The notes under the pieces are model-generated. The model was not told the DNA's origin. It was given only the letters and a program-made list of their open reading frames with translations, and ran no database searches. 64,000 nucleotides of DNA from Dehalococcoidia bacterium (GTDB taxonomy: Bacteria; Chloroflexota; Dehalococcoidia; Lucifugimonadales; UBA3495). Position 1 is the stretch's first letter. Each line of letters opens with the position of its first letter. The stretch spans positions 346,944-410,943 of the forward strand of contig CBDANN010000005.1 in NCBI GenBank assembly GCA_965197635.1. Reading direction: 5' to 3'. Below, one piece after another: positions 32,160 to 49,634 of the stretch. The position numbers and the translations under genes are program-made.

Positions 32160-32193
32160 CCGGTTCCTGACCCCATCTCGAGAGGAACTGAAT

Positions 32194-33282
32194 ATGGCTG
32201 TGCAAGCGAGCGCCCCGGGATCCGCGGGCGAAGTCCAACAAGCGGCGCCGGCCATTGGCGGCTTTTCCATTGGACGGACAATCCGTCAAGCTCGCCGCTT
32301 TCCGGTGGTCGCTTTGTTGGTCCTGGTGGTCGTGCTGGTTGTCCCCGCCATTTTCGCGAACTTGATCGCGCCTCACGACCAAATTAATGGAGACTTGGAT
32401 CGTGCGCTCGAACCGCCCGGATGGGTTCGAGAGCGCCATACCGAGTTGGTAATCGTCAACCGCGTCAGGGATAGTAGCAGCGAAATGAGCGTGCGCAACG
32501 CCGCGCGCACGGTGGCGGACGGTTCGACCACGCTGATAGACGCCAACGGAAACGGTCAGGCTGACCTCGGTGAAGCGGTGGTGCGCCTCGACCGTGGCGG
32601 GAGTTGGGAATACCCGTTGGGTACCGACAAACAGGGACGCGACGTCCTGAGCCGCATCATCTATGGATCACGAGTTTCTCTTATGGTGTCCATGCTGGCA
32701 ATTTTGCTGGGCGGTATTTTGGGTACGGCCCTGGGCATGATTGCCGCATTCCGCGGCGGCCTGACCGATGCCATCGTTATGCGCATCGTTGACATCAAAC
32801 TGGCTTTCCCGTCAATCCTGCTGGCGCTGACTTTGGTGTCTGCCATCGGCTCCGGGTTCAGCACCGTGATTATCGTAATCGCCTTGCTGCTTTGGGCGAG
32901 GTACGCTCGCGTCGTGCGAGGTGACGCCCTGGCGATCAAGCAACGCGATTTTATCGACCGGGCCCGCGTTTCGGGCGCGTCCAACCTTCGCATAATGCTG
33001 TGGCACATCTTCCCCAACGTGGTGAACACCGTGGTTGTGCTGGCCACGTTGGAGGTCGGACACGTCATCATATTGGAATCGACCCTCAGCTTCCTGGGCG
33101 CCGGCATCCCGGCGCCGACCCCGGCTTGGGGCGTAATGGCCGCCGACGGGCGGGAGCTCATCACCAGCAGTTGGTGGATCTTCCTGTTCCCCTGCCTGGC
33201 CATCGTCCTCACCGTGCTGTCCATGAACCTCTTGGGCGACTGGCTCCGCGATCGACTCGACCCCAAACTGAGGAACGTCTAG
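32194..33282 (+). CDS. ABC peptide/nickel-type permease (DppC/OppC-like), cassette 1
   Basis: ATG 32194. GTDKQGRDVLSRIIYG motif and a long periplasmic insertion after TM1. Confidence 0.9.
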   Translation: MAVQASAPGSAGEVQQAAPAIGGFSIGRTIRQARRFPVVALLVLVVVLVVPAIFANLIAPHDQINGDLDRALEPPGWVRERHTELVIVNRVRDSSSEMSVRNAARTVADGSTTLIDANGNGQADLGEAVVRLDRGGSWEYPLGTDKQGRDVLSRIIYGSRVSLMVSMLAILLGGILGTALGMIAAFRGGLTDAIVMRIVDIKLAFPSILLALTLVSAIGSGFSTVIIVIALLLWARYARVVRGDALAIKQRDFIDRARVSGASNLRIMLWHIFPNVVNTVVVLATLEVGHVIILESTLSFLGAGIPAPTPAWGVMAADGRELITSSWWIFLFPCLAIVLTVLSMNLLGDWLRDRLDPKLRNV

Positions 33283-33716: not shown

Positions 33717-35705
33717 ATGGTTTATCGACGGTTTTTGAAGTTCCCGGTCGTTGCCCTGTCGGTGGCGTTAGCCGCCACGGTGGTTATTGTAGGATGCGGC
33801 GGCGCAGCTGAGCAGGGAGCGGCTGCTCCCACTCAGGCCGCCGCTACTGGCGGTGGCGCGGCGGCTCCGGCCCCACCCACCGACATGCCGGCTGCAGTCC
33901 GAGCCACGAATACCCCGGTTCCTGGGGGGGCAGCGGTAGAACCCACTCCCACGCAGCGTATTTCGGTGCTGCCAGCCCGGCCCACTCCTACTGCAACTCC
34001 GGTTGGGCAAGAGCCCGAAGGAGAGTTGGCAACTACCCGGCTAATCGCGGTCGTTGACCCGCCTTCCCTGGAGTCGATGCTGGACTGCGAAGTAACCGGG
34101 TCAGGGGTGCTCAATTACCGTATGTCCGCTGAGTGGATGGTGGACGCCAGCCGGTTTGACGGCTCCTATGAGCCGATGCTGGCTACTGAATGGAGCGTTT
34201 CCGAAGATGCCCGCACCTGGAACTTCAAGCTGCGGCAGGGCGTGCGCTGGCATGACGATTGGGGCGAGTTCACTGCCCGGGACGTCAAGCACTCCATGGC
34301 TTACTACACCAATCCCGAATGCCGAGCATCGTATTCGGACTATTTCCGCAACGACCCCGGCGCTGAGGTTGAAATAGTCAACGACTACGAGGTTAACCTT
34401 CATATGAAGCGACGCCCTGCCGTTGACTTCGTATACTGGTACTCCGGTTATCGCGGCATCCCGCATAGCAGTAGCGCCCAGTGGAACCAGGATTGCCCCA
34501 ACGGCGAAGCCGACTACGGCACTAACGAGGCCGGCGAGCCGCTGAACTACTGCAAGGCCAGCCGGGATGCCACCGCTGAAAAACCGGCCCGCACCGGCCC
34601 TTACGAATTCGTCAGCTTTGAGGAAGGCGTCGGCTGGCAATGGGAGCGAGTCGATTACGACCACTGGCGGATCAATCCTGATTTTGCCGAGATTGAACTG
34701 AAGGACGTGCGCGAATCCGCCACCCGCCTGGCGATTATGCAGGCCCGCGAAGGCCATATCGCCACCATCAACCGGGCGCTGTTGCAGGACGCTATCGATG
34801 ACGGCCTGGAAGTCGTTGACAGCTCGGTCACCTCAATAACCGCCTTCGCCCTCTTTGGCGGCATGTATTTCGCCACCGGCGCCAAAGGCGTTCCCACCGA
34901 CCTTCCGGCAGAGCAGCAGGCTGACATCCGGGCAAGCTATGATATCGTCGCCGCTCGCGACGAGAAGATGCCTTGGAGCGAGGCCGACGAAAGCGGTCGC
35001 CTGGTTCGCATGGCGATGAACAAAGCCATTGACCGGGACCAGATCAACAATGCCATCTTCCAAGGCGTCGGTGGGAAGCAATGGGTCGCCACCCTGACTC
35101 CCGACTTCCCCGGCGGCTACAGCGCGGAGTGGGAAGACCGCTGGGAAGAACTGTATGGTTATGATCCGGACAAAGCCCGCGAACTGCTCGTCGAAGCCGG
35201 ATACCCCGAAGGATTCTCCTTCCGTGTTCCTGTATTCGTTCTGGGCGGCGTGCCCGAACTCCCCGATATGATGGAGGCCATGGCCAAGTTCTGGACCGAA
35301 ATCGGCCTGGAGCCCCAGCTGGACCCCATCGAATTCTCCAACTGGCGCAACAACTACCGCGGCCTGGATACCGACTGCTGTGTCTATGGTTTCCGCGGAC
35401 CGGCCGCGCCCATCGACACCCGCGTTCACTTCTACTTTAGCGCCGAACGGTTCTTCCGGGCCCACACCAGCGACGAAATCCAAGAATGGAAAAACCAGGC
35501 CTTGCGCGCCCTTAACGAGGCCGACGCAGAGGGGCAGTGGCAAAACGTATCCGACCAACTCTTCTACGATGTGGGCACCATCCCCGGCTGGACCATGCCC
35601 ATCAGCGCAACCATCGACCCCGAAGTGGTGGCCGAGTACGTGTTCCTGGGGCCCAATCAGGGCAGCTTCATCTACCTGGAGTACGTCAAAGGCGTGCGCG
35701 AGTAA
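33717..35705 (+). CDS. family-5 ABC substrate-binding lipoprotein (cassette 2)
   Basis: 662 aa. Lipobox VIVGC, Ala/Pro/Thr-rich linker, SBP_bac_5-like body. Confidence 0.9.
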   Translation: MVYRRFLKFPVVALSVALAATVVIVGCGGAAEQGAAAPTQAAATGGGAAAPAPPTDMPAAVRATNTPVPGGAAVEPTPTQRISVLPARPTPTATPVGQEPEGELATTRLIAVVDPPSLESMLDCEVTGSGVLNYRMSAEWMVDASRFDGSYEPMLATEWSVSEDARTWNFKLRQGVRWHDDWGEFTARDVKHSMAYYTNPECRASYSDYFRNDPGAEVEIVNDYEVNLHMKRRPAVDFVYWYSGYRGIPHSSSAQWNQDCPNGEADYGTNEAGEPLNYCKASRDATAEKPARTGPYEFVSFEEGVGWQWERVDYDHWRINPDFAEIELKDVRESATRLAIMQAREGHIATINRALLQDAIDDGLEVVDSSVTSITAFALFGGMYFATGAKGVPTDLPAEQQADIRASYDIVAARDEKMPWSEADESGRLVRMAMNKAIDRDQINNAIFQGVGGKQWVATLTPDFPGGYSAEWEDRWEELYGYDPDKARELLVEAGYPEGFSFRVPVFVLGGVPELPDMMEAMAKFWTEIGLEPQLDPIEFSNWRNNYRGLDTDCCVYGFRGPAAPIDTRVHFYFSAERFFRAHTSDEIQEWKNQALRALNEADAEGQWQNVSDQLFYDVGTIPGWTMPISATIDPEVVAEYVFLGPNQGSFIYLEYVKGVRE

Positions 35706-35849
35706 TTCACATCCGCGCAAAGGACGCTAACCCTTGACGCTGACGGCTCAAACCGCAGCGTTGGGGGTCTGTCGCCAACTACATCAGGCGCAACGAACCA
35801 TACTGCCATTCCCGGTTCACTCAACAACCGGCAAGTGGGGCGAACTATC

Positions 35850-36767
35850 ATGCAGAGATTCATCGTACTGAGAATTTTACAGGGGCTACTGGCAGTGTTC
35901 GTCATCAGCCTGATTGTCTTTGCCCTCTCCCGAGTGGCCGGTGATCCGCTGGCTGCCATTCTGGATGACGAAGCCGGCAAGGAGCAGATTGAACTGCTTC
36001 GCAAAAGCTGGGGACTCGACCAACCGCTCCATGTCCAATATTTCACTTATACGCGCCGTCTGTTGACCGGAGACTTGGGGGTATCATTTCGATGGGACCG
36101 CCCGGTTGCCGAACTGATCGCAGAAAGGCTCCCCGCCACCGTGCAGCTTTCCTCGTTCGCGTTGGTCATTACCGGCCTGATTGCCTTTCCCATCGGCGTG
36201 CTGTCGGCAGTGAGAAAAGACTCCCTGTTTGACACCGGCGGAAAAATGTTCGCCATATTGGGACAGTCGGCTCCGACTTTTGCGGTTGGCCTGATTCTGA
36301 TGTGGCTTTTCGCGGTTCAGCTGGGATGGCTGCCCACGTCCGGCAAAGGCGGCTTGAGACATATGCTGCTGCCGGGCTTTGCGCTGGGTTACTACAACGT
36401 GGCGGCAATCATGCGCCTAACCCGCTCCTCAATGCTGGACGTGCTGGATACCGAGTACGTGAAACTGGCCCGTATCAAAGGCATACCGGAATGGAAAATT
36501 GTCTGGAAACATTGCTTCCGCAACGCACTGATCGGACCGCTGACTTATTTCAGCCTGATTTTCGCGGTGATCATCACCGGCTCGGTGGTCATTGAAACCG
36601 TTTTCGCCTGGCCGGGCCTGGGGCTGATGGTCATTGAAGCCATCAACTCCAAAGACCACATCGTTGTTCAAGCCGTGGTGATGCTGTTCGCGTTGCTGTA
36701 TGTCGGGATTAACATCGTCACCGACATCACCTACGCTTATGTTGACCCGCGCATCCGTTACGGCTAG
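35850..36767 (+). CDS. ABC permease (DppB-like), cassette 2
   Basis: ATG 35850 (MQRFIVLRILQGL). Paralog of 31245.. and 40090... Confidence 0.9.
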   Translation: MQRFIVLRILQGLLAVFVISLIVFALSRVAGDPLAAILDDEAGKEQIELLRKSWGLDQPLHVQYFTYTRRLLTGDLGVSFRWDRPVAELIAERLPATVQLSSFALVITGLIAFPIGVLSAVRKDSLFDTGGKMFAILGQSAPTFAVGLILMWLFAVQLGWLPTSGKGGLRHMLLPGFALGYYNVAAIMRLTRSSMLDVLDTEYVKLARIKGIPEWKIVWKHCFRNALIGPLTYFSLIFAVIITGSVVIETVFAWPGLGLMVIEAINSKDHIVVQAVVMLFALLYVGINIVTDITYAYVDPRIRYG

Positions 36768-36838
36768 AACGCCCTTGGACTGTGTCACCGGTTCGATAAG
36801 ACCGATCGCATTGTCCTGAACATCGGAGGAAAAGGATA

Positions 36839-37933
36839 ATGGCCGTACAAACGACTGCGCCGGGCGGGCCAGTTGACGCTTTGGCAGGGGCCGCTCCCGC
36901 CGCCCGGGGGTTTTCCCTGGGCCGGGCTTGGCGCGAATTTCGCCGCTTTCCGGTGGTGCCGCTTTGCGTGTTGATTTTCCTGCTGATTATCCCGGCGATT
37001 TTCGCCGACCTGCTGTCCCCCCATAGCCATATCATCGGAGACCTGGACCATGCGCTGGAACCGCCGGGCTGGGTTCCCGACCGAGAGAAAAGCCAGGTTG
37101 TAGTTCAGCGTGTTAAAGACAAGAACCCCAACGAAGTCAGTATCAGAAACGCTCAACGTAACCTGGACAACGGTGTTGCCACTCTGAGGGACGCCAACGG
37201 CAACGGCGCGGTTGACCTGGGCGAAACGATGGTGAGGGCTGAACCGGGCGGGAGCTGGGAGTATCCCTTCGGCACTGACAAGCAGGGGCGGGATTTGCTG
37301 AGCCGAATGATGCACGGCGCCCGCATCTCCCTGGCCGTCTCCTGCCTAGCCATTTTGGTCGGGGGAGTATTGGGCACCGGCCTGGGGATGCTGGCGGCTT
37401 TCCGGGGTGGCTTCCTCGACGCCTTGGTAATGCGTATTGTGGACATCAAACTGGCTTTCCCGTCAATACTGCTGGCGCTCACGCTCGTCGTCGCCATCGG
37501 CTCCGGGTTCAGCACCGTTATCATAGTCATCGCGCTGCTGCTCTGGGCCCGCTATGCCCGGGTAGTGCGCGGCGAAGCTTTGGCCATCCGCGAACGCGAC
37601 TTCATCGACCGGGCCAGAGTCGCCGGCGCGTCCAACTTGCGGATTATGGGGCGGCATATTTTCCCCAACGTGTTCAATACGGTGATTGTGCTGGCGACGC
37701 TGGAGGTGGGCCACGTCATCATCCTGGAAGCCACTCTGAGCTTCCTGGGGGCCGGCATTCCTCGGCCCAACCCCGCATGGGGTTTGATGGCCGCCGACGG
37801 CAGGGAGGTCATCACCAGTTCTTGGTGGATTTTCATGTTCCCTTGTTTGGCAATTGTGCTCACCGTGCTGTCCATGAATCTGCTGGGCGACTGGCTGCGC
37901 GACCGACTCGACCCTAAGCTCAGAAACGTATAA
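36839..37933 (+). CDS. ABC permease (DppC-like), cassette 2
   Basis: 364 aa. GTDKQGRDLLSRMMHG motif. Paralog of 32194.. and 41066... Confidence 0.9.
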   Translation: MAVQTTAPGGPVDALAGAAPAARGFSLGRAWREFRRFPVVPLCVLIFLLIIPAIFADLLSPHSHIIGDLDHALEPPGWVPDREKSQVVVQRVKDKNPNEVSIRNAQRNLDNGVATLRDANGNGAVDLGETMVRAEPGGSWEYPFGTDKQGRDLLSRMMHGARISLAVSCLAILVGGVLGTGLGMLAAFRGGFLDALVMRIVDIKLAFPSILLALTLVVAIGSGFSTVIIVIALLLWARYARVVRGEALAIRERDFIDRARVAGASNLRIMGRHIFPNVFNTVIVLATLEVGHVIILEATLSFLGAGIPRPNPAWGLMAADGREVITSSWWIFMFPCLAIVLTVLSMNLLGDWLRDRLDPKLRNV

Positions 37934-38005
37934 GATGCGCGGGCCGAGAGGCTTGGTTCCTCTGACGAGGGACCACACCAAACATTCTCGTTTTCGGAGG
38001 ACTGA

Positions 38006-39970
38006 ATGACCCGCAGTAGTTTGTTCCGGTTGCCGGTGCTTTTGATTGCCCTGACGCTGGTGGCAGCGCTATTCATTGTGGGGTGCGGCGGAGCTGAAGA
38101 AGCCCCCGCTCCACAGGCCGCCCCAGCCACTCAAGCTGCGGCCGCCGCACCTCAGCAGGCCGCTTCTACTGCGGCGCCGGCCGCAGCAGCGCCCGCGCCG
38201 GCCCAGCCCCCGGCGACATCGGCGCCCACCAGGCCATCCTTCGTTGCCTCAACCCCGGTTGCCGAAGCCACTCCAACGCCCGAAACGGCAGCACGCACCG
38301 GTGAACTCCAAACCAAGGACCTCATCTTCCTGTTCTCGCAACAAACCCGCCAGGGCATTATGGATTGTGATGTCACCGGCAGCGCGACCAGTCAACACCG
38401 GCCATCCCATGAATTCATGCTGGACGCCGACCGCTACACCGGCGCGCTGGTTCCCCAACTCTCCACCGACTGGAGCGTCAGCGATGACGGACGAACCTGG
38501 AACTTCAAGCTACGCGAGGAGGTCAACTTTCACTTCGGGTACGGCGAGTTCACCGCGCACGATATCGTGAATTCGCTGAACTATTACACCAACCCGGCGT
38601 GCGGGGCCTCTTACTCCGACTACTTCCGCACCAACCCCCAGGCGTTGCCCGAAGTCGTGAGCGACCACGAAATCAACATCGCCATGGGCGCCAGGCCCGA
38701 GTTGATTTTCGACTATTGGATTTCCGGTTATCGTGGCTTGCCCATGTCCAGCAAGGCCCAATGGGATACGGGATGCCCCAATGGAGAAGCCGATTACGAG
38801 ACCTTTGACGTAACGGCTCATCTCGAAGGTTACTGTTCCGCCGGAGAAGATACCCTGCTCGAGCAAGGTCCGGCTCGGTTGGGACCGTACCAATTCGCCA
38901 ATTTTGAAAAGGGCATCGGTTGGCTGTGGGAACGTGCGCCCGGAGATCATTATCGGGTCGACCCGGACTGGGACTCCATTGAAATCAAGATCATTGAGGA
39001 AGCCTCCACCCGGCTCGCGGCTATGCTGGCTCGCGAGGCTCACCTCGCCACCATTGACCGCGCCCTGGTAGGGCAAGCATTGGACTCCGGCTTGGACGTT
39101 GCCGAAAGCCAGGTGGTCGCCGTGAACAGCATGATGGTCTTCGGCGGGCTCTACTATTCGACCAAAGAGGGAGCGGCGTTCGACCCATATTCGGCCGCCT
39201 CGTACGATGCCACGGTTCCCTGGGCCGCCCCCGGCGAAACCGGCAAAATGGTTCGCCAAGCCATGAACAAAGCCATCGACCGCGACTCCATCCGGGAGAA
39301 CATCTTTGACGGACAGGGCGCGGAGGGCCGCGTCGCCGGCCTTATTCCCAGCGCCGAGGCCTTCGGCGGCGAATACGCCGGTTACAACCCCGATTGGGAA
39401 AGCAATTGGGCAGACCTGTACGGCTACGACCCGGAGGCCGCCAGAGAGTTGTTGGCAGAGGCCGGCTATCCCAACGGGTTCCACGTGCCCATTATCAGCT
39501 ACACCATGAGCGGCCTGCCCGAAATGAAAGACTACGTGGTGGCCATCGCCGCAATGTGGGAGAACATCGGACTGGAAACCGAAATCCTCGAGATGGAGTT
39601 CTCCGCCTGGCGGTCGGAGTATCGCGGCGCCACCACCAACTGCTGCGTCTATCCCTTCCGCGGCTACGCTGAGCCGCCGCACCCGACCATCCACTTTGCC
39701 TACAGTCCGGAAAGGTTCATGCGGTTCTACGTCAGCGACACTGCCTGGGAAAATACCTACAAGGCCCTGAACTCCCTCAATTTTGAGGAGCAGTTGGGCT
39801 ATTGGCACGCCGTCACCGACGAGTTGTTCTACGAGGTGGCCTCCATCCCGCTGCATACGCTGTCGGTGCAGGTGGTCATTGACCCCGAAGTGGTGGAAGA
39901 GTACATCTACCTTGGCCCCTACGGCGGTCAGTTCACCGACTTGGAGCACATCAAAGGAGTACGCTACTGA
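38006..39970 (+). CDS. family-5 ABC substrate-binding lipoprotein (cassette 3)
   Basis: 654 aa. Lipobox FIVGC and Ala/Pro-rich linker. A more diverged paralog of 33717... Confidence 0.9.
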   Translation: MTRSSLFRLPVLLIALTLVAALFIVGCGGAEEAPAPQAAPATQAAAAAPQQAASTAAPAAAAPAPAQPPATSAPTRPSFVASTPVAEATPTPETAARTGELQTKDLIFLFSQQTRQGIMDCDVTGSATSQHRPSHEFMLDADRYTGALVPQLSTDWSVSDDGRTWNFKLREEVNFHFGYGEFTAHDIVNSLNYYTNPACGASYSDYFRTNPQALPEVVSDHEINIAMGARPELIFDYWISGYRGLPMSSKAQWDTGCPNGEADYETFDVTAHLEGYCSAGEDTLLEQGPARLGPYQFANFEKGIGWLWERAPGDHYRVDPDWDSIEIKIIEEASTRLAAMLAREAHLATIDRALVGQALDSGLDVAESQVVAVNSMMVFGGLYYSTKEGAAFDPYSAASYDATVPWAAPGETGKMVRQAMNKAIDRDSIRENIFDGQGAEGRVAGLIPSAEAFGGEYAGYNPDWESNWADLYGYDPEAARELLAEAGYPNGFHVPIISYTMSGLPEMKDYVVAIAAMWENIGLETEILEMEFSAWRSEYRGATTNCCVYPFRGYAEPPHPTIHFAYSPERFMRFYVSDTAWENTYKALNSLNFEEQLGYWHAVTDELFYEVASIPLHTLSVQVVIDPEVVEEYIYLGPYGGQFTDLEHIKGVRY

Positions 39971-40013
39971 CGCCATCAACCTGACGCGGTTGTTTGCTCA
40001 GTCCTTGTCATCT

Positions 40014-40050
40014 TCCGGCATCGTTCACTCTCGGGTTGAACGATGCCGGA
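40014..40050 (+). other. 14-bp-stem hairpin after the binding-protein gene (cassette 3)
   Basis: TCCGGCATCGTTCA-N9-TGAACGATGCCGGA, a perfect inverted repeat 44 nt after the stop codon. Confidence 0.5.
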
Positions 40051-40089
40051 GCAATCTCGTTCCTGTCGTAATAAAGTCGGAGCGCACCG

Positions 40090-41010
40090 ATGCAACGTTA
40101 CATCCTACGGCGGATAGCCCAGGGCATCCTGGCCATATTCGTCATCAGCACTATCACCTTCGCGCTGGCCCGCGTGTCCGGCGACCCGCTCAACGTGCTG
40201 CTGCCCGAAGAAGCCTCCGAAGAGCAGATTGAGCTGACCAAGAAGGAGTGGGGCCTGGACAAGCCGCTCCATATGCAGTACCTGCTGTACTTGGGCAAAC
40301 TGTTCCAGGGCGACATGGGCGAAGCCTTGGCCTGGCCCAACTCGACGGCCGGCGAACTGATTGTGGAGCGGCTGCCCAATACCATCAAACTGTCGGCGCT
40401 GGCTCTGGTAGTGAGCGGCATCATCGCGTTTCCCATCGGCGTGCTGGTGGCCGTCAAGAAGGACACGCCCTTTGACTACGGCGGCAAGCTGTTCGCCATC
40501 CTGGGCCAATCCGCCCCGTCTTTCGCGGTGGGGTTGATTCTGATGTGGATTTTTGCAGTCCAGCTCAATATCTTCCCCACATCTGGCAGCGGGGGTATCG
40601 AGTACATGATTCTGCCGGCGCTGGCCTTGGGCTACTACAACGTAGCAGCATTGATGCGCCTCACCAGATCCTCGATGCTGGAAGTATTAGACACCGAGTA
40701 CGTGAAACTGGCCAGAATCAAGGGCGTGGCCGAATGGAAAGTGATTTGGAAACATTGTTTTCGCAACGCCCTGATCGTTCCCCTGACTTACTTTGGTCTG
40801 ATTGGAGCCGTCCTGATCACCGGTTCGGTGGTCATCGAAACAGTTTTCGCATGGCCTGGGCTGGGAGCGCTGGTGATTGACGCCATCCTCTTCCGCGACT
40901 ACGTGGTTGTGCAAGCCGTCGTGTTGTTGTTCGCCACGGCGTTTGTAATCATCAACATCATGGTTGACGTGCTCTACGCCTACATTGACCCACGCATCAG
41001 GTATTCCTGA
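40090..41010 (+). CDS. ABC permease (DppB-like), cassette 3
   Basis: 306 aa, MQRYILRRIAQGIL N-terminus. Confidence 0.9.
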   Translation: MQRYILRRIAQGILAIFVISTITFALARVSGDPLNVLLPEEASEEQIELTKKEWGLDKPLHMQYLLYLGKLFQGDMGEALAWPNSTAGELIVERLPNTIKLSALALVVSGIIAFPIGVLVAVKKDTPFDYGGKLFAILGQSAPSFAVGLILMWIFAVQLNIFPTSGSGGIEYMILPALALGYYNVAALMRLTRSSMLEVLDTEYVKLARIKGVAEWKVIWKHCFRNALIVPLTYFGLIGAVLITGSVVIETVFAWPGLGALVIDAILFRDYVVVQAVVLLFATAFVIINIMVDVLYAYIDPRIRYS

Positions 41011-41065
41011 GGCCGGTGTGGGAATATACTCGCGAAAAGACGCAGACCATCGATTGAGGTATTAA

Positions 41066-42148
41066 ATGGCAGCGGTAATCACTCCCGACCTCGCAACTCC
41101 GGCAACTCCCCAACCCACCAGCCGAGCAGTAGCCGGACTCAAGGCGGTACGCCAATTGCCGCTTATTCCGTTGGTGATGCTGCTAATACTGCTGGTGATA
41201 CCGGCCATTTTCGCGAACCAGTTGGCTCCCCACAGCCATCGCATCGGCGTTTTGGACGACGCCAAACTGCCTCCCTTCTGGATATCAGAGAGCTATGAAG
41301 AACGCGCGGTGATCCAGCGCGCCGACCGCAACCGATTGGACCTGGAAATCGGCCTGTCCAACGCGCGGCGGAAGATTGAACGCGGAGAAGCGACTTTCCT
41401 GACCGGCGGCGAGGACGGTCAGGTTAATCCTGGCGACACCATCCGATTCCAGGCCCGAGAAGGCGGCTCCATGGAATACCCACTGGGCACCGACAAGCAA
41501 GGGCGCGACATCCTTAGCCGGATCATGCACGGGGCGCGGGTTTCCTTGATGGTGTCATGTCTTGCCATCCTGTTAGGAGGTGGGCTGGGCACCTTGTTGG
41601 GTATGCTCGCGGCCTATCGGGGCGGCAAAATCGACTCGATAATCATGCGCGTCGTGGACATCAAACTGGCCTTCCCGTCCATCCTGCTCGCCCTGGTGCT
41701 TGTCGCCGCCATCGGCGCCGGCTTCGCAACCGTCATCATCGTCATCGCCGTGTTGCTTTGGGCCAGATACGCTCGCGTGGTCCGTGGTGAGGCGCTCGCC
41801 ATCAAGCAGCAGGATTTCATCGATCGCGCCCGCGTTTCGGGCGCCTCAAACTCCCGGATTATGATGCGCCACATTTTCCCCAATTTGGTCAATACGGTGG
41901 TAGTATTAGCCACGTTGGAGGTAGGACACGTTATAATACTGGAGTCAACACTGAGTTTCCTCGGCGCCGGCATTCCTGCGCCGACCCCGGCCTGGGGAGT
42001 AATGGTGGCCGATGGCAGAGATCTGATTACCACCGCTTGGTGGATTTTCCTTTTCCCCTGCTTGGCTATCGTGCTCACCGTGCTGTCCATGAACCTGCTG
42101 GGCGACTGGCTAAGAGACAAACTAGACCCCAAATTGAGGAACATTTAG
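41066..42148 (+). CDS. ABC permease (DppC-like), cassette 3
   Basis: 360 aa, GTDKQGRDILSRIMHG motif. Confidence 0.9.
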   Translation: MAAVITPDLATPATPQPTSRAVAGLKAVRQLPLIPLVMLLILLVIPAIFANQLAPHSHRIGVLDDAKLPPFWISESYEERAVIQRADRNRLDLEIGLSNARRKIERGEATFLTGGEDGQVNPGDTIRFQAREGGSMEYPLGTDKQGRDILSRIMHGARVSLMVSCLAILLGGGLGTLLGMLAAYRGGKIDSIIMRVVDIKLAFPSILLALVLVAAIGAGFATVIIVIAVLLWARYARVVRGEALAIKQQDFIDRARVSGASNSRIMMRHIFPNLVNTVVVLATLEVGHVIILESTLSFLGAGIPAPTPAWGVMVADGRDLITTAWWIFLFPCLAIVLTVLSMNLLGDWLRDKLDPKLRNI

Positions 42149-42151
42149 GCC

Positions 42152-43195
42152 ATGACAGCTGTACAGACCGCTACCGACACCATCCTTGAGGTAAGCGACC
42201 TCAGAACCTATATCTTCACCCGCGCCGCCGTGGTGAAAGCAGTCGACGGGATCTCTTTCAACCTGAAGAAGGGCGAGACGCTCGGTATCGTGGGCGAGTC
42301 CGGATGCGGCAAGACCATGACCGCCCTGTCGCTGCTGCGCTTGGTGCCCAAACCGGCCGGCCGCATCGTCGAAGGAAAGATCGTCCTCAACGGCGAAGAC
42401 ATCCTGCAAAAAAGCGAAGACGAGATGCGCGATGTGCGCGGCCGTCAAATTTCCATGATACTGCAGGACCCGCAAACTTCTCTTAATCCGGTGTTCACCA
42501 TCGGGAACCAGTTGCGGGAAGCCCTGGGGATCGCCCACAAAGAAAACAAAAGCTCCATGCTGTCCCGCGCGGTTGACGCCCTGCGCAAAGTCAACGTAGC
42601 GGCTCCGGAGCGTCGGTTGGACGACTACCCACATCAGATGTCCGGCGGCATGAAGCAGCGCGTCGTCGGCGCCATCGCCATGTCCTGCGAGCCTGGCATC
42701 ATCATCGCCGACGAGCCCACGACCGCTCTGGACGTCACCATCCAGTTGCAGTACCTGCGCCTCCTAAAGGAGATCCAGGCAGAAACCGGGTTGGCCATCA
42801 TTTTCATTACCCACGACTTCGGCGTCGTCGCCCGTATGTGCGACCGGGTGGCCGTGATGTATGCGGGGCGCATTATTGAGCAGGGAGAAGTACGCGACAT
42901 CTTCAGCCGCCCGGCTCATCCCTACACCCAGGCGCTAATTAACTCGGTGCCCAAGCTCGAGGAGCGGGTTGATCGGCTGTTTTCGATCGAGGGACAGCCG
43001 CCGCTGTTGTCCAACTTGCCGGAAGGCTGTCGCTTTGCGCCCCGGTGCGAGTACGCCAACGAGCAATGCATCACGACTTATCCGTCTTCTATCCAGCTAA
43101 ATGATGGCCACCACGCCGATTGCTGGGCTTTGGGCCCGGACTGGCAGGGTACTCCCATAGCCGAGTTCGTCGCGCCCACCGGCACTACCGGGTAG
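42152..43195 (+). CDS. ABC oligopeptide/dipeptide-type ATP-binding protein (DppD/OppD-like)
   Basis: Walker A GESGCGKT, signature MSGGMKQR, C-terminal oligopeptide-type extension with CRFAPRC. Confidence 0.9.
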   Translation: MTAVQTATDTILEVSDLRTYIFTRAAVVKAVDGISFNLKKGETLGIVGESGCGKTMTALSLLRLVPKPAGRIVEGKIVLNGEDILQKSEDEMRDVRGRQISMILQDPQTSLNPVFTIGNQLREALGIAHKENKSSMLSRAVDALRKVNVAAPERRLDDYPHQMSGGMKQRVVGAIAMSCEPGIIIADEPTTALDVTIQLQYLRLLKEIQAETGLAIIFITHDFGVVARMCDRVAVMYAGRIIEQGEVRDIFSRPAHPYTQALINSVPKLEERVDRLFSIEGQPPLLSNLPEGCRFAPRCEYANEQCITTYPSSIQLNDGHHADCWALGPDWQGTPIAEFVAPTGTTG

Positions 43196-43248
43196 GAAGA
43201 CGCGAGCTAGCAACCTTTTGAAATCCGATTGAGGAGGTCACGTCCATC

Positions 43249-44229
43249 ATGGCAGTAGCCACCAACGATACGCTGCTTGAGGTCAACGGTCTCAAAAAGT
43301 ATTTCCCAGTAACCAAAGGTCTCATCATGATGAAGACCATCGGCTATGTGCAAGCGGTGGACGGAATTTCCTTCATCATCAAACAGGGAGAGACCCTGGG
43401 GTTGGTGGGAGAATCAGGCTGCGGCAAAACCACCACCAGCAAACTGCTGTTGCGCTTGGAGCAGCCGACCGAAGGGGAGATTTTGCTCGAGGGAGCGGAT
43501 ATAAGTACGTTCCGTGGGGCTCAATTGCAAGAGTATCGCACTACCGTACAAGCGGTATTCCAAGATCCGTGGTCTTCCCTCAGCCCACGTATGAGGGTCA
43601 AGGACATCGTTTCCGAGCCTCTGGTTGTGAACCGGAACGTTAACACCCAGGAGAAAAACGAACGGGTCGCCGAAGTATTGGCGCAGGTCGGCCTACACTC
43701 CCAGCAGGCGAACAACTATCCCCACGAGTTCAGCGGCGGCCAACGCCAGCGCATCGCGGTAGCGTCGGCGTTGGTGTCGTATCCCAAACTCATCGTCCTG
43801 GACGAGCCGGTTTCCGCCCTTGATGTGTCAATCCGAGCTCAGGTGATGAACCTGCTGAAAGACCTGCAGGAACAATACAACGTCAGTTATCTGCTCATCG
43901 CCCATAACTTGGCGACCGTGCGTTACATGGCGCACCAGACCGCGGTTATGTACTTGGGCCAGATTGTGGAGTTCGCAGAGACCGAGGAGTTGTACGACAA
44001 CGCGCTGCACCCTTATACCAAAGCGTTGTTCTCGGCTGCCTTGCCGTCCCACCCCGACCTGATTCGGGAAGACATCGTACTCCAGGGCGAGGTGCCGTCG
44101 CCGATCAATCCGCCCAGCGGTTGCAGATTCCACCCCCGATGCCCGTTCGCCATGCCCCAGTGCTCGGAAGAAGCGCCTGTGGACAAGGAAGTTGCGCCGG
44201 GGCACAGGGTTGCCTGCCATTTGTACTGA
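43249..44229 (+). CDS. ABC oligopeptide/dipeptide-type ATP-binding protein (DppF/OppF-like)
   Basis: Walker [10 protein letters not shown], signature FSGGQRQR, C-terminal CRFHPRC. Confidence 0.9.
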
Positions 44230-46128: not shown

Positions 46129-46698
46129 TCAGTGGCCGTCCAACGTGCCGTGGACGAGCAGGTTCCTTACCGAAGGAGTCAGCGTCCGGGCGCGTTCCAG
46201 AAGCGCATCATCGCTTGCGTTCGTAATGGGGTGAGGACACATCAGGTAAGGAAAGTTGGGAACTCCCATCAGCCTGGTGTACGCTCGGGCCGTGTTCTCG
46301 AAAACCGTTGTGATAATGGTCGCCGCGGGGATGCCCTGCCGTTCCAGAGTAATTCCGTCGTGCAAACTGCCCGACGAGCAACCCCCTCAATCGCCAACAC
46401 CTGCGACGACGAAATCCGCGTTGCGGTGCAGGTCGGCCAACACTTCCGGGTATGGCGGCAGGGAAGCGCTGTGCTTGCGAGCATAAAAGATGTCGGCGAA
46501 CTCAAACTCATCGTTTAGGGCATTGGCAATAGCCCAAAGGATACGGTCTGAGTTGTTTTTGGAATTGTCCAGGAGACCCAGGCGCCCGCCGCGCATATCA
46601 ACTGGCCGCGCCGCCATCACCAGAGGGCTTTCTCCAGGGTCGAAACCGGTGGGGTCTATCAGTTGTACGGTGGTCGCGTTTCCGATTGTCATTTCCAA
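46129..46698 (-). CDS. candidate selenoprotein (single frame with in-frame UGA at 46387-46389), GrdB/UGSC-like redox motif
   Basis: ORFs 46387..46698 and 46129..46365 are in the same frame and are separated only by TGA plus 7 sense codons. The joined sequence reads ...FVVAGVGD-U-GGCSSGSLHDGITLERQGIP.... The downstream part has no ATG or RBS of its own. Confidence 0.55.
46355..46377 (-). other. candidate bacterial SECIS hairpin
   Basis: mRNA positions +10 to +32 after the UGA read UCGUCG-G-GC-AGUUU-GC-A-CGACGG. That gives a 6-bp lower stem, an internal mismatch, a 2-3 bp upper stem and a G/U-containing apical loop about 20 nt from the UGA. Confidence 0.4.
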
Positions 46699-46718
46699 AC
46701 TCCTGTTATACCCGGGCG

Positions 46719-47765
46719 CTACAGCGCATCAATGGTCGTGGTAACCGCTGGTACCCCATAGTAATTCATTATCAGCTCACTGTAGATGCCGCTGTCTCCA
46801 CCTGCCTTGATGATCAGGATTTCGTCAGGGTTGTTAATTGTCATGTGGCGGTGTTCGTCATCTCCTTCCTCCACCGACCCACTCACCATGCCCAGCCGTT
46901 TAAGCTGACCGGTGGACCGCCAAGCCCGTTCGTACAGATATTCCTGCATATCTCGGCGGCTCCAGCCCAGCCGACCCAGTAGCTCCGAGTGCCAGTGGCC
47001 CACGACCCAAACCCACTTGATATCACGCCCGAAGTAGACGCCCAATCCATGGGACGCCATTCCGTCAGCAATGGAATCCAGGAGACTCTCCGCAGTCCTT
47101 CCGTACCTGTTGCCGTGCATTGAAGGATCCTGGATCGTCGCCACTGTGACCGTGGACTGGTCGGCCGAATAGCCTTCGCTGACATGGAACGGTTCCCAAG
47201 GGCTGTTCTCTTCGTCCTCGCCGATGACAACTCCGAACTTGGTCAAACTACCCATGCAACCACGATCGAGGAGGCCGGGCCGCTGTTCGAAAACGTTGAT
47301 CAATATCAACCGCAACGCCCGACCGATGGTGGAGTTGGCCCGGTTACCCGGGCTGAACAAATTGTCCGTACAGTTCAGACCGATTTCGCGTCGGATCGGC
47401 CCATTCACAATAGTAAGCAAACCCGTCGAATTGGTGACCGCCGAGACTTCGTGGATGCAGTTAGGATCGTGTTCAAACAGAACCCGCATAGTGGCCAGCA
47501 CTATAGGGAAATAAGCCGGCAGACAACCCGCCATAACCGCGTTGGCCGCCGCCTGCTCCGCCGTCAGGACGCGCCGGCGCACCGGCACCTCGCCGAGCAC
47601 GAAATCGGGCGCCAATCCCACGGCATCCAACATCGCTTGCACCCGGTCGGAGGTAGGCGGGACTACCGGGAGGCCGTCCGTCCAGCCCCGCCGATAGCAT
47701 TCCTCAATGGCATCCAGAGTGTCAGGGTACTGATGTACCGTGGCTCTCAGCACAGGCTCAACCAA
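46719..47765 (-). CDS. conserved-looking uncharacterised protein (348 aa), operon partner of the candidate selenoprotein
   Basis: Non-repetitive, globular-looking sequence (CYRRGWTDGLPVVPPT...). Ends 20 nt before the downstream gene start. I could not name a family. Confidence 0.6.
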   Translation of the reverse strand: MVEPVLRATVHQYPDTLDAIEECYRRGWTDGLPVVPPTSDRVQAMLDAVGLAPDFVLGEVPVRRRVLTAEQAAANAVMAGCLPAYFPIVLATMRVLFEHDPNCIHEVSAVTNSTGLLTIVNGPIRREIGLNCTDNLFSPGNRANSTIGRALRLILINVFEQRPGLLDRGCMGSLTKFGVVIGEDEENSPWEPFHVSEGYSADQSTVTVATIQDPSMHGNRYGRTAESLLDSIADGMASHGLGVYFGRDIKWVWVVGHWHSELLGRLGWSRRDMQEYLYERAWRSTGQLKRLGMVSGSVEEGDDEHRHMTINNPDEILIIKAGGDSGIYSELIMNYYGVPAVTTTIDAL

Positions 47766-48013
47766 GCTTCGGCCTCCCCGATAAGGTGTTGTTCTGCTGT
47801 TCCCTACGCCGTTGGCATTTTACCAACGGCGTCGCCACATTCTCAACCCGCACGACCAACCGCAGCGACGGTCTGACGCTCGGTGTTTTGACTGGATAAT
47901 ACGGCGCAGGGCAATTTTTGGATTGCCCAATCATCAACGACCGGGCGGAACGGCGACATTTTGTCCTAAGGATCCTAAGCAGAGATGACTGACCCGGAAG
48001 AACTGAATAGGCT

Positions 48014-48662: not shown

Positions 48663-49634
48663 CTAAACCCGGCCGCCGGCGGACCGGATTGCTTTGGTCA
48701 ACGCGGCAGCGGCGGCCTCCGGCTCGGGAGCGTTTCCCACTGCCGCTGTCACGCATATGGCGTCGGCTCCCGCTTCGACCACCGGCGCAACATTCGCCGC
48801 AGTGATGCCGCCTATCGCTACCAACGGCACCTGGGCGGCGGCACGAGCCTGCTTCAACCGCTCCGGCCCTTGAGGCGCTCTGGTCACCTGCTTGGTAGTC
48901 GTGGTGTACATCGCTCCAAACGCCACGTGGTCCGCTCCCATCTGTTGGGACTCGACAATCAAATCAATCTCCCGGTTGGAGCGGCCCAACACCTGTCCGG
49001 GAGCCAGGATTTTCCGGGCCTCGGATACCGGCAGGTCGGTCTGGCCCACGTGCAGCCCGACATCATCCCCACCCAAGGCGGCAGCCAGATCGGCGTGGTC
49101 GTTGATAATCAGCAACGCACCATTGGCCGCGCACAAATCCCGTAAGGCCTCGCCCAACGGCAATTGTTCGCCCTTATCCCGCAACTTGTCGCGCAGTTGC
49201 AGCATCCGGGCGCCGCCGTTGATAGCGGCTCGCGCGATATCCAAAGGTTCGCGCCCCCCCGTGACTTCTGGATCTATGATCACGTACAGGCCACGAATGC
49301 GGTCAGCCTGCTCCTTACGCATCACTCCGCCGATACGGGCCGTCGCGTCATCCAGGGCTCTCCGCAGTTGCAGCGCCGAGTCCGCGCCGATTTGTCCTGC
49401 GTTCAGCATCACTTCCAATAGATTACGGGCCGCGCCGGCCAACGCGAGCGCTTCGCGCCGGTTTCCTGGCCGCCCGGCGTTGGCCGGCGTGGGGCGTGGC
49501 GCCTCAATCCCGGTGTCCAGCCAGCCGATTTCACCGCGCATCAGACCTTCCGGGATACCATCCGACGCCAACAGTCCCTCCAGGCAACCCACCAGGGCCG
49601 GCGTCAGATCAGGGGCGTTTTGTTCCGTCGTCAC
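48663..49634 (-). CDS. thiE: thiamine-phosphate synthase with about 105-aa N-terminal extension
   Basis: The C-terminal 215 aa carry LYVIIDP...LQLRDK...HVGQTDLP...AIGGI ThiE motifs. The N-terminal extension is unassigned. Confidence 0.85.
   Translation of the reverse strand: MTTEQNAPDLTPALVGCLEGLLASDGIPEGLMRGEIGWLDTGIEAPRPTPANAGRPGNRREALALAGAARNLLEVMLNAGQIGADSALQLRRALDDATARIGGVMRKEQADRIRGLYVIIDPEVTGGREPLDIARAAINGGARMLQLRDKLRDKGEQLPLGEALRDLCAANGALLIINDHADLAAALGGDDVGLHVGQTDLPVSEARKILAPGQVLGRSNREIDLIVESQQMGADHVAFGAMYTTTTKQVTRAPQGPERLKQARAAAQVPLVAIGGITAANVAPVVEAGADAICVTAAVGNAPEPEAAAAALTKAIRSAGGRV

What the first reader, a model, noticed from the sequence alone, without database searches (positions are those of the whole stretch)
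46129..46698. Candidate selenoprotein: one reading frame with a single in-frame UGA in a GD-U-GGC motif followed by a SECIS-like hairpin
The 103-aa and 78-aa ORFs are in the same frame. Only TGA (46387-46389) interrupts a 189-codon frame: ...DFVVAGVGD-U-GGCSSGSLHDGITLERQGIPAATIITTVFEN...PHPI.... The downstream piece has no ATG or SD and would need a TTG 8 codons after the stop. The stop sits in a U-x-x-C redox-type context. Starting 10 nt after the UGA, the mRNA can fold into UCGUCG/CGACGG plus an upper stem with a G/U-containing apical loop about 20 nt from the UGA. This is the geometry expected for a bacterial SECIS. From memory, the motif and the GIP..I....F...A......G.P..P....PHP tail resemble the GrdB/PrdB-like fold and the UGSC-motif selenoprotein family reported from marine metagenomes. 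Function and substrate are unknown.
Basis: partly seen in the sequence, partly recalled or inferred. Interest (0 to 1): 0.8.

Follow-up and report, generated by a model that had tools for sequence, protein, structure and literature searches.

The report
UGSC-family selenoprotein gene with SECIS
This is a real selenoprotein gene of the already described but functionally uncharacterised UGSC family, in an uncultured SAR202-type Dehalococcoidia bacterium: its in-frame UGA is read as selenocysteine with the help of a conserved hairpin, and it always sits beside, and is sometimes fused to, one unnamed partner gene.

Summary
On the minus strand a single frame runs from ATG 46692 to the stop at 46129-46131, interrupted only by TGA 46387-46389 in the motif GVGD-U-GGC.

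With Cys in place of U, the protein passes the curated models for the 'UGSC family (seleno)protein': NCBIfam NF041046 scores 129.1 bits (cutoff 125) and Pfam PF24696 scores 172.5 bits.

- All 88 related loci (mainly Dehalococcoidia) and 120 unrelated metagenomic loci carry TGA at this codon, followed by conserved coding sequence.
- Full-length Cys homologues align Cys to U (GD-C-GSC).
- The hairpin lies 14-34 nt from the U of UGA, with apical loop G23-U24.
- In the SAR202 clade the hairpin has almost no synonymous variation. Across the family it shows compensatory changes (85% of cells paired against 19-46% in slid controls; 0 of 500 shuffles reach the covariation score).
- UGA is an ordinary stop in at least four other genes of the window.

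The family has been described since 2007-2008 and its function is unknown.

- Additional finding: a 348-aa gene with no family model (46719-47765) is an obligate neighbour and is sometimes fused to UGSC.
- The predicted fold is flavodoxin/Rossmann-like, not thioredoxin-like.
- Similarity to PrdB/GrdB is weak but in register.
- Selenocysteine machinery could not be checked.

The parts
46129..46692 (-). Coding sequence of the UGSC-family selenoprotein: 187 codons including Sec at codon 102; stop TGA 46129-46131 followed by TAA.
   Evidence: Continuous frame. NCBIfam NF041046 129.1 bits against cutoff 125. Pfam PF24696 172.5 bits covering residues 11-180.
46700..46704 (-). Shine-Dalgarno-like AGGAG, 7 nt upstream of ATG 46692.
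   Evidence: Read directly from the sequence. Homologues start MT(T/I).. at the equivalent position.
46387..46389 (-). In-frame UGA read as selenocysteine, in the motif GVGD-U-GGC.
   Evidence: TGA at this codon in 88/88 related loci and in 120 metagenomic loci. Cys is found here in full-length homologues P0053, P0068 and P0081.
46378..46380 (-). UGC codon of the resolving cysteine of the U-x-x-C motif.
   Evidence: Cys is invariant in 85 SAR202-clade sequences (TGC 78, TGT 7) and nearly invariant in Cys forms (C97 of A1).
46356..46376 (-). SECIS-type hairpin inside the coding sequence. Stem positions 14-22 pair with 26-34, counted from the U of UGA. Apical loop G23-U24-U25 lies at 46365-46367. 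There is a G.A mismatch at positions 19/29.
   Evidence: RNAfold. Synonymous-site entropy is 0-0.27 bit at codons +4..+11 against 0.8-1.7 bit in the flanks. In 117 sequences 85.4% of cells are paired and 0 of 500 shuffles reach the covariation score; compensatory pair types are seen at three stem positions.
46719..47765 (-). Partner gene (348 aa, no family model). It ends 26 nt upstream of the UGSC start, so the two are probably one operon.
   Evidence: No Pfam, NCBIfam or PDB sequence hit. At least 7985 homologues. Adjacent to UGSC in 80/80 genome loci and in 40/41 metagenomic loci with both flanks. Fused to UGSC in L152, L173 and L176.
47817..47846 (-). Promoter-like site (TTGAGA-18-TAAAAT with TG) about 50 nt upstream of the partner gene. 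This is a consensus match only.
   Evidence: 4 sites found against 1.9 expected in the region.

Best explanation
The locus encodes one 187-residue selenoprotein of the UGSC family.

Decoding. During translation the UGA at codon 102 is decoded as selenocysteine. The mRNA directly downstream folds into a SECIS hairpin whose apical loop presents G23 and U24, counted from the U of UGA. By inference this hairpin recruits SelB carrying Sec-tRNA(Sec).

Protein. It is predicted to be a five-unit beta-alpha (flavodoxin/Rossmann-like) domain. Sec sits in the loop after strand 3 and the Cys of U-G-G-C sits in the first turn of the next helix. That geometry suits a selenol/thiol pair that cycles through a selenenylsulfide. 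The other conserved family motifs are DNSKxN (just after strand 1 in the model) and HPI (C-terminal part); that they lie near the Sec in three dimensions is likely for this kind of fold but was not checked on the model.

Function. It most probably acts as the redox-active or nucleophilic subunit of a two-component enzyme formed with the product of the upstream 348-aa gene. The closest mechanistic analogue is the Sec subunit of proline or glycine reductase (PrdB/GrdB). The substrate is unknown.

Shown here: a single reading frame, family membership, Sec/Cys correspondence, a conserved and covarying hairpin, and obligate linkage and fusion with the partner.

Inferred: SelB dependence, the redox cycle, the physical complex, and a reductase-type chemistry.
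For: - Family models passed.
- All nine closest database proteins stop exactly at the UGA. About 135 of the 150 best cluster representatives do the same, and about 7 are full-length forms with GD-C-GSC.
- TGA followed by conserved downstream coding sequence in 88/88 loci and in 120 independent metagenomic loci from many sub-clades.
- Near-zero synonymous variation at codon -1 and codons +4..+11.
- Hairpin covariation: pair 19/29 is UA 69, GU 24, GC 10, AU 5, CG 1; pair 20/28 is GC 101, CG 11, AU 3; pair 21/27 is CG 110, GC 4. Slid controls give 19-46% paired against 85.4% observed.
- UGA terminates at least four other family-confirmed genes in the window, so there is no genome-wide reassignment.
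- AlphaFold2 model of a Cys form has pLDDT 91, with the CxxC at the strand 3/helix 3 junction.
- The partner is adjacent in 80/80 genomes, in Cys-form loci of Betaproteobacteria and Actinobacteria, and in 40/41 metagenomic loci with both flanks. It is fused in frame in three loci.
- In-register remote similarity to PrdB-like selenoproteins.
- The literature describes the UGSC-containing protein as a major aquatic selenoprotein family of unknown function: 255 Sec against 21 Cys forms in GOS (PMC2398784; PMC1976440; PMC13188914).
Against: - No selA, selB, selD or tRNA-Sec is present in the 64-kb window or near the related loci. The rest of the genome could not be examined.
- No Rfam SECIS model matches.
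- The hairpin's folding energy alone is not significant.
- In this clade the stem carries a conserved G.A mismatch.
- Part of the covariation coincides with amino-acid substitutions between sub-families, so protein-level co-variation and shared ancestry contribute to the counts.
- There is no experimental evidence for Sec insertion, for a complex with the partner, or for any activity.
- The partner has no universally conserved cysteine and no confident structural relative.
- The PrdB/GrdB similarity has only 37% HHalign probability.
Confidence: 0.9

Rival explanations
1. The TGA is a sequencing or assembly error, or a recent inactivating mutation, in an ordinary Cys-containing gene (TGC/TGT changed to TGA).
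For: A single base change would produce it, and Cys-form homologues exist. One database relative, P0010, is clearly a frameshifted assembly, so errors do occur at this locus type.
Against: TGA is found at the same codon in 88/88 loci from about 80 different species-level genomes and in 120 independent metagenomic contigs. The downstream coding sequence is under strong purifying selection. The codon before it is invariably GAT.
Confidence: 0.01
2. There are two separate products. A ~101-aa protein ends at the UGA, and the C-terminal 78-85 aa either is translated independently or is not made at all.
For: Gene callers annotate it this way everywhere. Sec insertion is usually inefficient, so a truncated product may coexist with the full-length one.
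Against: The downstream part has no ATG or SD, only a TTG eight codons in. The Pfam UGSC domain spans the junction, residues 11-180. Cys forms are single polypeptides. The U-x-x-C motif straddles the stop. The model predicts one compact domain.
Confidence: 0.03
3. UGA is decoded here by something other than the Sec system: a genome-wide UGA reassignment (to Trp, Gly or Cys) or context-dependent near-cognate read-through.
For: The selenocysteine machinery was not observed. Cys can functionally replace Sec in homologues.
Against: UGA ends at least four other family-confirmed genes in the window, and this gene itself. A hairpin with loop G23-U24 at a fixed distance from the UGA covaries across the family, which simple read-through does not need. 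Sec forms greatly outnumber Cys forms, as published for this family.
Confidence: 0.04
4. The conserved stretch after the UGA reflects only protein and codon-usage constraints on the motif C-S-S-G-S-L-H-D-G. It is not a functional RNA structure.
For: The amino-acid sequence there is invariant within the SAR202 clade. Much of the inter-clade variation changes amino acids.
Against: Six-fold (Ser) and four-fold (Gly) codons inside the hairpin are fixed: TCG 85/85 twice, AGT 85/85, GGC 85/85. The same amino acids outside it use 3-4 codons. The rare synonymous changes keep pairing (GAC to GAT gives G-U) or fall in the loop (TTG to CTG). Across clades the substitutions are complementary, and 0 of 500 shuffles reach the score.
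Confidence: 0.03

Closest known systems
UGSC family (seleno)protein (NCBIfam NF041046; Pfam PF24696). This is the 'UGSC-containing protein' of Zhang and Gladyshev, found in Hyphomonas neptunium, the Olavius symbiont, and the Sargasso Sea/GOS metagenomes.
   Same: It scores above both curated cutoffs. It has the same length and the same position of Sec/Cys, the same U-x-x-C motif, a SECIS directly after the UGA, and Sec forms far more common than Cys forms.
   Different: The motif is U-G-G-C instead of U-G-S-C in all 88 SAR202-clade sequences. The stem of its SECIS carries a fixed G.A mismatch. The family was proposed to have a thioredoxin-like fold (PMC2398784), but the AlphaFold2 model and Foldseek hits indicate a flavodoxin/Rossmann-like beta-alpha domain.
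Selenoprotein B subunits of D-proline reductase and glycine reductase (PrdB, GrdB; Pfam PF07355 GRDB) and the marine 'PrdB-like' selenoproteins.
   Same: Both have a U-x-x-C motif directly after a hydrophobic strand and about 85-90 residues from the C-terminus. It is followed by a helix, by '(L/F)E..G(I/L)(P/S)(T/A)', and by a Pro/Gly-rich segment. Profile-profile alignment gives E 3.5e-4 over 91 columns with U/C in register, score 32.2 against at most 20.2 in shuffled controls. Both work, or probably work, with a separately encoded partner subunit.
   Different: There is no Pfam GRDB hit at E<=1 and HHalign probability is only 37%. No PrdA, GrdE or GrdA genes lie nearby. The partner here is an unrelated 345-aa family. 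The hosts are aerobic or facultative heterotrophs rather than Stickland fermenters. Homology is plausible but not established.
Bacterial SECIS of the Escherichia coli fdhF type (SelB-binding hairpin). The comparison with fdhF rests on my own knowledge of the published element.
   Same: The hairpin lies inside the coding sequence immediately 3' of the UGA. The apical loop begins with G-U at positions 23-24 from the U of UGA, the positions known as G23/U24 in fdhF. The upper stem GCA/UGC resembles the fdhF minihelix.
   Different: No Rfam model matches. The loop has 3 nt (GUN) in most members. The window clade has an internal G.A mismatch rather than a bulged U. SelB binding was not tested.
Thioredoxin-fold CxxC/UxxC oxidoreductases (Trx-, Prx-, DsbA- and SelW-like selenoproteins).
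   Same: A redox-type U-x-x-C pair sits at the N-terminus of a helix, so a selenenylsulfide cycle is the expected chemistry.
   Different: No thioredoxin-fold structure is among the top 50 Foldseek hits. The predicted topology is five beta-alpha units with the motif after strand 3. No Trx-family Pfam hit.

Membership tests
UGSC family (seleno)protein (NF041046 / PF24696) | Score at or above the curated HMM cutoffs over the full domain. | tested here: met
   NF041046 129.1 bits against 125, profile 2-146/147. PF24696 172.5 bits against 25, profile 2-171/172. The query had Cys substituted for U.
UGSC family (seleno)protein (NF041046 / PF24696) | A U/C-G-S-C motif with Sec (TGA) or Cys at the first position. 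| tested here: met
   The motif here is U-G-G-C, so the U and C positions are kept and S is replaced by G. Cys forms have C-G-S-C in 73 of 82 sequences. Metagenomic Sec forms are mostly U-G-S-C with some U-G-A-C.
UGSC family (seleno)protein (NF041046 / PF24696) | In Sec forms, a single polypeptide continues through the UGA. | tested here: met
   Conserved in-frame continuation in 88 + 120 loci. The domain model spans the junction. Translation itself is not testable here.
Bacterial SECIS element | A stem-loop immediately downstream of the UGA, with the apical loop roughly 16-37 nt from it and G/U in the loop. | tested here: met
   Stem at positions 14-22/26-34 and loop G23-U24-N25. G and U are more than 90% conserved in alignment A3.
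Bacterial SECIS element | Structure maintained in evolution (covariation). | tested here: met
   85.4% of cells paired against 77.3% shuffled (0/500). Covariation score 0.205 against 0.082 (0/500). Slid registers give 19-46% paired. Four pairs show double changes. Caveat: the four outer 3' columns were fixed by the search pattern.
Bacterial SECIS element | Binding by SelB, and presence of selA, selB, selC and selD in the genome. | not testable with these tools
   None is present in the 64-kb window.
Bacterial SECIS element | A match to a curated Rfam SECIS model. | tested here: not met
   No hit at gathering threshold or at E<=10 on 46250-46450. Whether Rfam release 15 holds a bacterial SECIS model that would fit this lineage was not checked, so the absence of a hit says little against a SECIS.
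GrdB/PrdB selenoprotein B (PF07355) | Sequence membership in the GRDB family. | tested here: not met
   Only PF24696 is reported at E<=1. In the two GOS reads that matched it, the GRDB model ended at or next to the Sec position, so this test is partly blind to the region after U.
GrdB/PrdB selenoprotein B (PF07355) | Remote homology of the Sec-containing region. | tested here: inconclusive
   HHalign of a UGSC profile (115 sequences) against 22 GOS PrdB-like sequences: E 3.5e-4, probability 37%, 91 columns, U/C in register. Control scores are 9.8-20.2 against 32.2.
GrdB/PrdB selenoprotein B (PF07355) | Genomic association with the pyruvoyl proprotein (PrdA/GrdE) and GrdA or thioredoxin-system genes. 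| tested here: not met
   The neighbours are the 348-aa partner, a PQQ-like beta-propeller, a ThiE-like gene, a PRK14562-like gene and Opp-type ABC transporter genes.
Thioredoxin-fold oxidoreductases | A thioredoxin fold around the CxxC/UxxC motif. | tested here: not met
   The AlphaFold2 model (pLDDT 91) has five beta-alpha units. The Foldseek top hits are flavodoxin-like, lumazine synthase, FtsZ N-domain and TIR, with TM 0.37-0.48 and no Trx-fold entries in the top 50. The model is of a 43%-identical Cys homologue, not of the window protein itself.

The most novel reading that the evidence does not exclude
UGSC and its obligate 345-aa partner form a previously uncharacterised two-subunit (sometimes single-chain) selenoenzyme. 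It would be distantly related in its Sec subunit to proline/glycine reductase B proteins. It would catalyse a reductive or group-transfer step on an unknown small organic substrate in aerobic heterotrophs such as SAR202, where it is universally retained. The partner would be a new catalytic or substrate-binding fold.
Probability: 0.3. Interest if true: 0.6.

Novelty: new member of a known kind. Interest (0 to 1): 0.3.

Why it matters
For annotation. This gene is split or truncated in essentially every public record examined. All nine nearest database proteins and about 90% of the 150 best cluster representatives end at the UGA. Recognising it restores a complete, conserved protein to SAR202/Dehalococcoidia genomes and shows that this abundant ocean and sponge-associated clade depends on selenium.

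For biology. UGSC is one of the most abundant aquatic selenoprotein families, yet it has had no function for nearly twenty years. Three results give concrete handles for finding its function:
- the strict pairing with one unmodelled family of at least 8000 members, which is fused to UGSC in some lineages;
- the non-thioredoxin fold;
- the in-register similarity to PrdB-like proteins.

The finding itself is not surprising to a selenoprotein specialist.

Tried and rejected
- Rfam at gathering threshold on the whole window, and at E<=10 on the locus: no SECIS hit.
- Single-sequence RNAfold z-scores: not significant, so they were not used as evidence.
- ARAGORN on the window and on 60 related loci: no tRNA-Sec.
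- Pfam/NCBIfam scans of about 45 ORFs across the window: no SelA, SelB or SelD.
- A scan of the window for other ORF pairs split by a single TGA: 63 mechanical candidates. Judged only by eye from the residues around each TGA, none besides this one looked like a real split gene; they were not scanned against family models.
- The joined protein could not be submitted to the exhaustive representative search or to structure prediction. The N-terminal half and a Cys homologue were used instead.
- PDB sequence and profile searches for both proteins: nothing meaningful. The hit of the partner to designed TIM barrels is treated as a curiosity.
- Foldseek for the partner: only weak matches to class I fumarate hydratase and Toblerone-fold hydrolases (TM <=0.3), not used for inference.
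- Figure S1A of PMC2398784 (the UGSC/'Unknown_1' fusion) is held only as an image. Identity of 'Unknown_1' with the partner is therefore likely but unverified.
- P0012, a 1611-aa repeat protein, was discarded as a spurious hit.
- A thiol-redox role for the partner was considered and down-weighted, because no cysteine is conserved across diverse partners.
- Literature search for SAR202 plus selenocysteine: nothing useful.
Full report
**Observation.** The gene lies on the minus strand. Translating 46740-46100 gives one frame...LEMTIGNATTVQLIDPTGFDPGES...HRNADFVVAGVGD*GGCSSGSLHDGITLERQGIPAATIITTVFENTARAYTRLMGVPNFPYLMCPHPITNASDDALLERARTLTPSVRNLLVHGTLDGH**. The single internal stop is TGA at 46387-46389. 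The likely start is ATG 46692, preceded by AGGAG at 46700-46704. The gene ends with TGA-TAA at 46129.

**Family.** With Cys in place of the stop, the 187-residue protein scores 129.1 bits against NCBIfam NF041046, 'UGSC family (seleno)protein' (equivalog, cutoff 125). It scores 172.5 bits against Pfam PF24696 'UGSC' over residues 11-180, that is, across the UGA. The literature describes the 'UGSC-containing protein' as follows:
- a selenoprotein of unknown function first noted in Hyphomonas neptunium and in the Olavius symbiont (PMC1976440);
- one of the most abundant selenoprotein families in the Global Ocean Sampling data, with 255 Sec forms against 21 Cys forms, a UxxC motif, a 'likely Trx-like fold', and occasional fusion to a domain called Unknown_1 (PMC2398784);
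- still listed as uncharacterised in 2022 and 2026 reviews.

**Is the UGA a real, conserved Sec codon?**
- The nine closest proteins in a 5.8-billion-sequence collection are all 102-132-aa ORFs ending ...G[VI]GD. The tenth is a frameshifted assembly.
- An exhaustive HMMER search with the N-terminal half found 495 cluster representatives. Of the best 150, about 135 end exactly at the position of the U. About seven are full-length proteins with ...GD-C-GSC..., so Cys aligns with U.
- DNA of seven encoding contigs shows TGA followed by in-frame, conserved GGCSSGSLHDG(I/V)TLE....
- A scan of one genome per GTDB species with the neighbouring gene returned 80 loci. Nearly all are Dehalococcoidia, SAR202 or Chloroflexota MAGs, plus Candidatus Entotheonella. 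All carry the UGSC gene, and 88/88 loci overall have TGA at this codon.
The 80 whose read-through translations were inspected are all UGSC genes of many sub-clades, with coding continuity through the TGA.
- UGA is not reassigned. It terminates at least four other family-confirmed genes in the window, and this gene itself.

**SECIS.** Counting from the U of UGA, positions 14-22 (CGUCGGGCA) pair with positions 26-34 (UGCACGACG) around the loop G23-U24-U25. There is a G.A mismatch at 19/29, and U13.G35 can extend the stem.

The folding energy of this one sequence is not exceptional (z = -1.47 and -0.46), so the case rests on comparison.
- Within 85 distinct SAR202-clade sequences whose proteins differ by up to about 40%, the codons in the hairpin show almost no synonymous variation: TCG 85/85, TCG 85/85, GGC 85/85, AGT 85/85, TTG 82 with CTG 3, CAC 85/85, GAC 81 with GAT 4, GGA 83/85.
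- Gly, Val, Thr, Leu, Pro and Ala codons on either side use three to five synonymous codons, with entropy 0.8-1.7 bit. The codon before UGA is GAT in 85/85, although an Asp eight codons upstream is GAC 49 and GAT 36.
- The few changes either keep pairing (G-C to G-U) or fall in the loop.
- Across the family (117 distinct sequences in a gap-free 45-column alignment, A3) the named helix is paired in 85.4% of cells. Column-shuffled controls give 77.3% (0 of 500 reach the observed value). Registers slid by 1-3 nt give 19-46%.
- The covariation score is 0.205 against 0.082 (0/500). Pair 19/29 occurs as U-A 69, G-U 24, G-C 10, A-U 5 and C-G 1. Pair 20/28 occurs as G-C 101, C-G 11 and A-U 3. Pair 21/27 occurs as C-G 110 and G-C 4.

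Caveats:
- The four outer 3' columns were fixed by my search pattern.
- Related sequences inflate shuffle statistics.
- Many of the compensatory changes also change amino acids, for example G-S-V-L against C-S-L-H against A-S-L-A.

The loop G23-U24 and the spacing coincide with the numbering I recall for the E. coli fdhF SECIS (G23, U24). That point rests on memory and was not tested here. No Rfam family matches.

**Surroundings.** Only 26 nt upstream of the UGSC start a 348-aa ORF ends (46719-47765). It has no Pfam, NCBIfam or PDB-sequence match. It does have at least 7985 homologues at 60-95% identity, all called 'hypothetical', from Chloroflexota, Entotheonella, Binatia, Rokubacteria and Methylomirabilota.
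- It is followed by UGSC on the same strand in 80/80 genome loci.
- Homologues at 33-43% identity abut the Cys-form UGSC genes of Advenella (Betaproteobacteria), of a 5.3-Mb contig and of Agromyces (Actinobacteria, with the gene order reversed). A homologue also abuts a divergent Sec form on a 3.2-Mb circular contig.
- In the pattern-selected metagenomic sample, which was chosen without reference to the partner, 104/120 loci contain it on the same strand (86 upstream, 18 downstream).
- Of the 41 loci with at least 1.1 kb on both sides, 40 have it directly adjacent and one has it 783 nt away.
- In L152, L173 and L176 the two are a single ORF, with the UGSC domain and its Sec first and the partner domain second. 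This is probably the 'UGSC/Unknown_1 fusion' of PMC2398784, but that figure panel is not readable.
- Across diverse partners no cysteine is invariant. The conserved residues are polar or glycine/proline: G(W/L)xDGLPxxPxT, NAxxAG, NGP, ANxxIxRA, ExEExSxW.
- Other neighbours vary. In this window and its syntenic relatives they are a PQQ-like beta-propeller, ThiE-like and PRK14562-like genes and Opp transporter genes. Elsewhere they are acyl-CoA dehydrogenases, CoA transferases, acyl-CoA synthetases, amidohydrolase, short-chain dehydrogenase (SDR) and luciferase-like monooxygenase genes.
- A promoter-like site lies about 50 nt upstream of the partner gene.

**Structure.** An AlphaFold2 model of a Cys-form member (P0053, with an 82-sequence alignment) is confident: pLDDT 91.1 and pTM 0.86. 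It consists of five beta-alpha units. The Sec-equivalent Cys94 lies between strand 3 (residues 86-92) and helix 3 (95-110), and Cys97 lies in the first helical turn. Foldseek against the PDB returns only generic flavodoxin-like or Rossmann-like three-layer sandwiches at TM 0.37-0.48. No thioredoxin-fold entries appear among the top 50. The published guess of a Trx-like fold is therefore not supported. The partner model (pLDDT 86.5) has only weak, low-TM resemblance to class I fumarate hydratase and Toblerone-fold cyclic amide hydrolases.

**PrdB/GrdB question.** Pfam reports no GRDB hit for UGSC. In the two GOS reads that matched GRDB, that model ended at or next to the Sec position. Using 22 'proline reductase (PrdB)-like' and GrdB-like selenoprotein sequences from Dataset S1 of PMC2398784 and a 115-sequence UGSC profile, HHalign gives:
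- score 32.2, E 3.5e-4 and probability 37% over 91 columns;
- the U/C-x-x-C motifs, the preceding strand, the '(L/F)E..G(I/L)(P/S)(T/A)' segment and the following Pro-rich segment all in register;
- control scores of 14.0 for the reversed profile, at most 16.1 for column shuffles and at most 20.2 for block shuffles.

In the UGSC proteins examined the Sec lies about 85 residues from the C-terminus; from memory, it lies at a similar distance (about 85-90 residues) in PrdB and GrdB. This supports a distant relationship but does not prove one.

**Mechanism.**
- Shown: one reading frame, Sec/Cys equivalence, a structured and covarying element at canonical distance, and obligate genomic coupling and fusion with one partner family.
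- Inferred from established knowledge of bacterial Sec decoding: SelB with GTP and Sec-tRNA(Sec) binds the hairpin loop and delivers Sec to the UGA.
- Inferred from UxxC selenoenzymes: Sec acts as nucleophile or redox centre and is resolved by the Cys three residues downstream as a selenenylsulfide.
- Inferred from the gene pairing and the PrdB analogy: the protein is the Sec subunit of a two-component enzyme whose substrate-binding part is the partner. The substrate is unknown.

**Verdict.** The object is a new, routinely mis-annotated member of an already described selenoprotein family, so novelty and surprise are low. The partner linkage, the fold assignment and the PrdB-like similarity are useful additions. 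The one refutation test that remains open is the presence of selenocysteine machinery elsewhere in the genome.

Noticed in passing
window 46719-47765 (-); loci L008-L087, L088-L094, L095-L214: The 348-aa neighbour belongs to a very large family (at least 7985 homologues) with no Pfam or NCBIfam model. It is almost invariably adjacent to UGSC genes across Chloroflexota, Proteobacteria and Actinobacteria, in either order. In L152, L173 and L176 it is fused to UGSC in one ORF. No cysteine is conserved across the family.
   Followed up: yes
window 29126-29920 and 29598-30809 (+): One family-5 solute-binding protein gene appears split over two overlapping ORFs in different frames. Pfam SBP_bac_5 profile positions 2-99 fall in the first ORF and 116-324 in the second. 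This suggests a frameshift, a pseudogene or an assembly error.
   Followed up: no
window 19218-20612 (+): A DDE transposase (DDE_Tnp_1_4, E 2e-58), that is, an insertion sequence, sits between an aldolase-like gene and an MFS transporter gene.
   Followed up: no
window 16834-18942 (-): A 702-aa ORF combines a DapA/KdgD-like aldolase N-terminal half with a C-terminal half similar to (5-formylfuran-3-yl)methyl phosphate synthase (MfnB-like, E 3e-56), an unusual fusion. A 783-aa ORF on the opposite strand overlaps it and is probably a GC-rich artefact.
   Followed up: no
Pfam PF07355 (GRDB) against GOS PrdB/GrdB-like reads: The GRDB profile ends at or next to the selenocysteine position (profile 345-346 of 347). 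The model was probably built from proteins truncated at the UGA, so it cannot detect similarity downstream of Sec.
   Followed up: partly
partner protein residues 278-322 (window about 46800-46934): A profile of the partner family matches the repeat unit of de novo designed TIM barrels (sTIM11, DeNovoTIM6; E 2e-8 summed over four repeats). This is most likely convergence of an idealised beta-alpha unit, not homology.
   Followed up: no
window 10706-14447 (-): A three-gene xanthine dehydrogenase / 4-hydroxybenzoyl-CoA reductase-type molybdoenzyme cluster: Mo subunit, 2Fe-2S subunit and FAD subunit. The Mo subunit matches selenium-dependent XDH models only weakly, well below their cutoffs.
   Followed up: no
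window 33717-44229 (+) and 29126-33282 (+): Three successive Opp/Dpp-type ABC systems or parts of them: several family-5 binding proteins and permease pairs, plus one ATPase pair. The last system is syntenic with the UGSC locus in L001.
   Followed up: no
L152, L173, L176, L178, L192: The sub-clade with fused UGSC-partner proteins (motif U-G-S-C-T-K-(F/Y)-L-V) does not fit the family's consensus hairpin. It seems to use a different stem-loop after the UGA.
   Followed up: no
window 48663-49634 (-): The thiamine-phosphate synthase (TMP-TENI) domain occupies only residues 116-299 of a 323-aa ORF. The N-terminal extension of about 115 residues has no match. The same arrangement (336-348 aa) is seen in the syntenic loci L001 and L007.
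   Followed up: no
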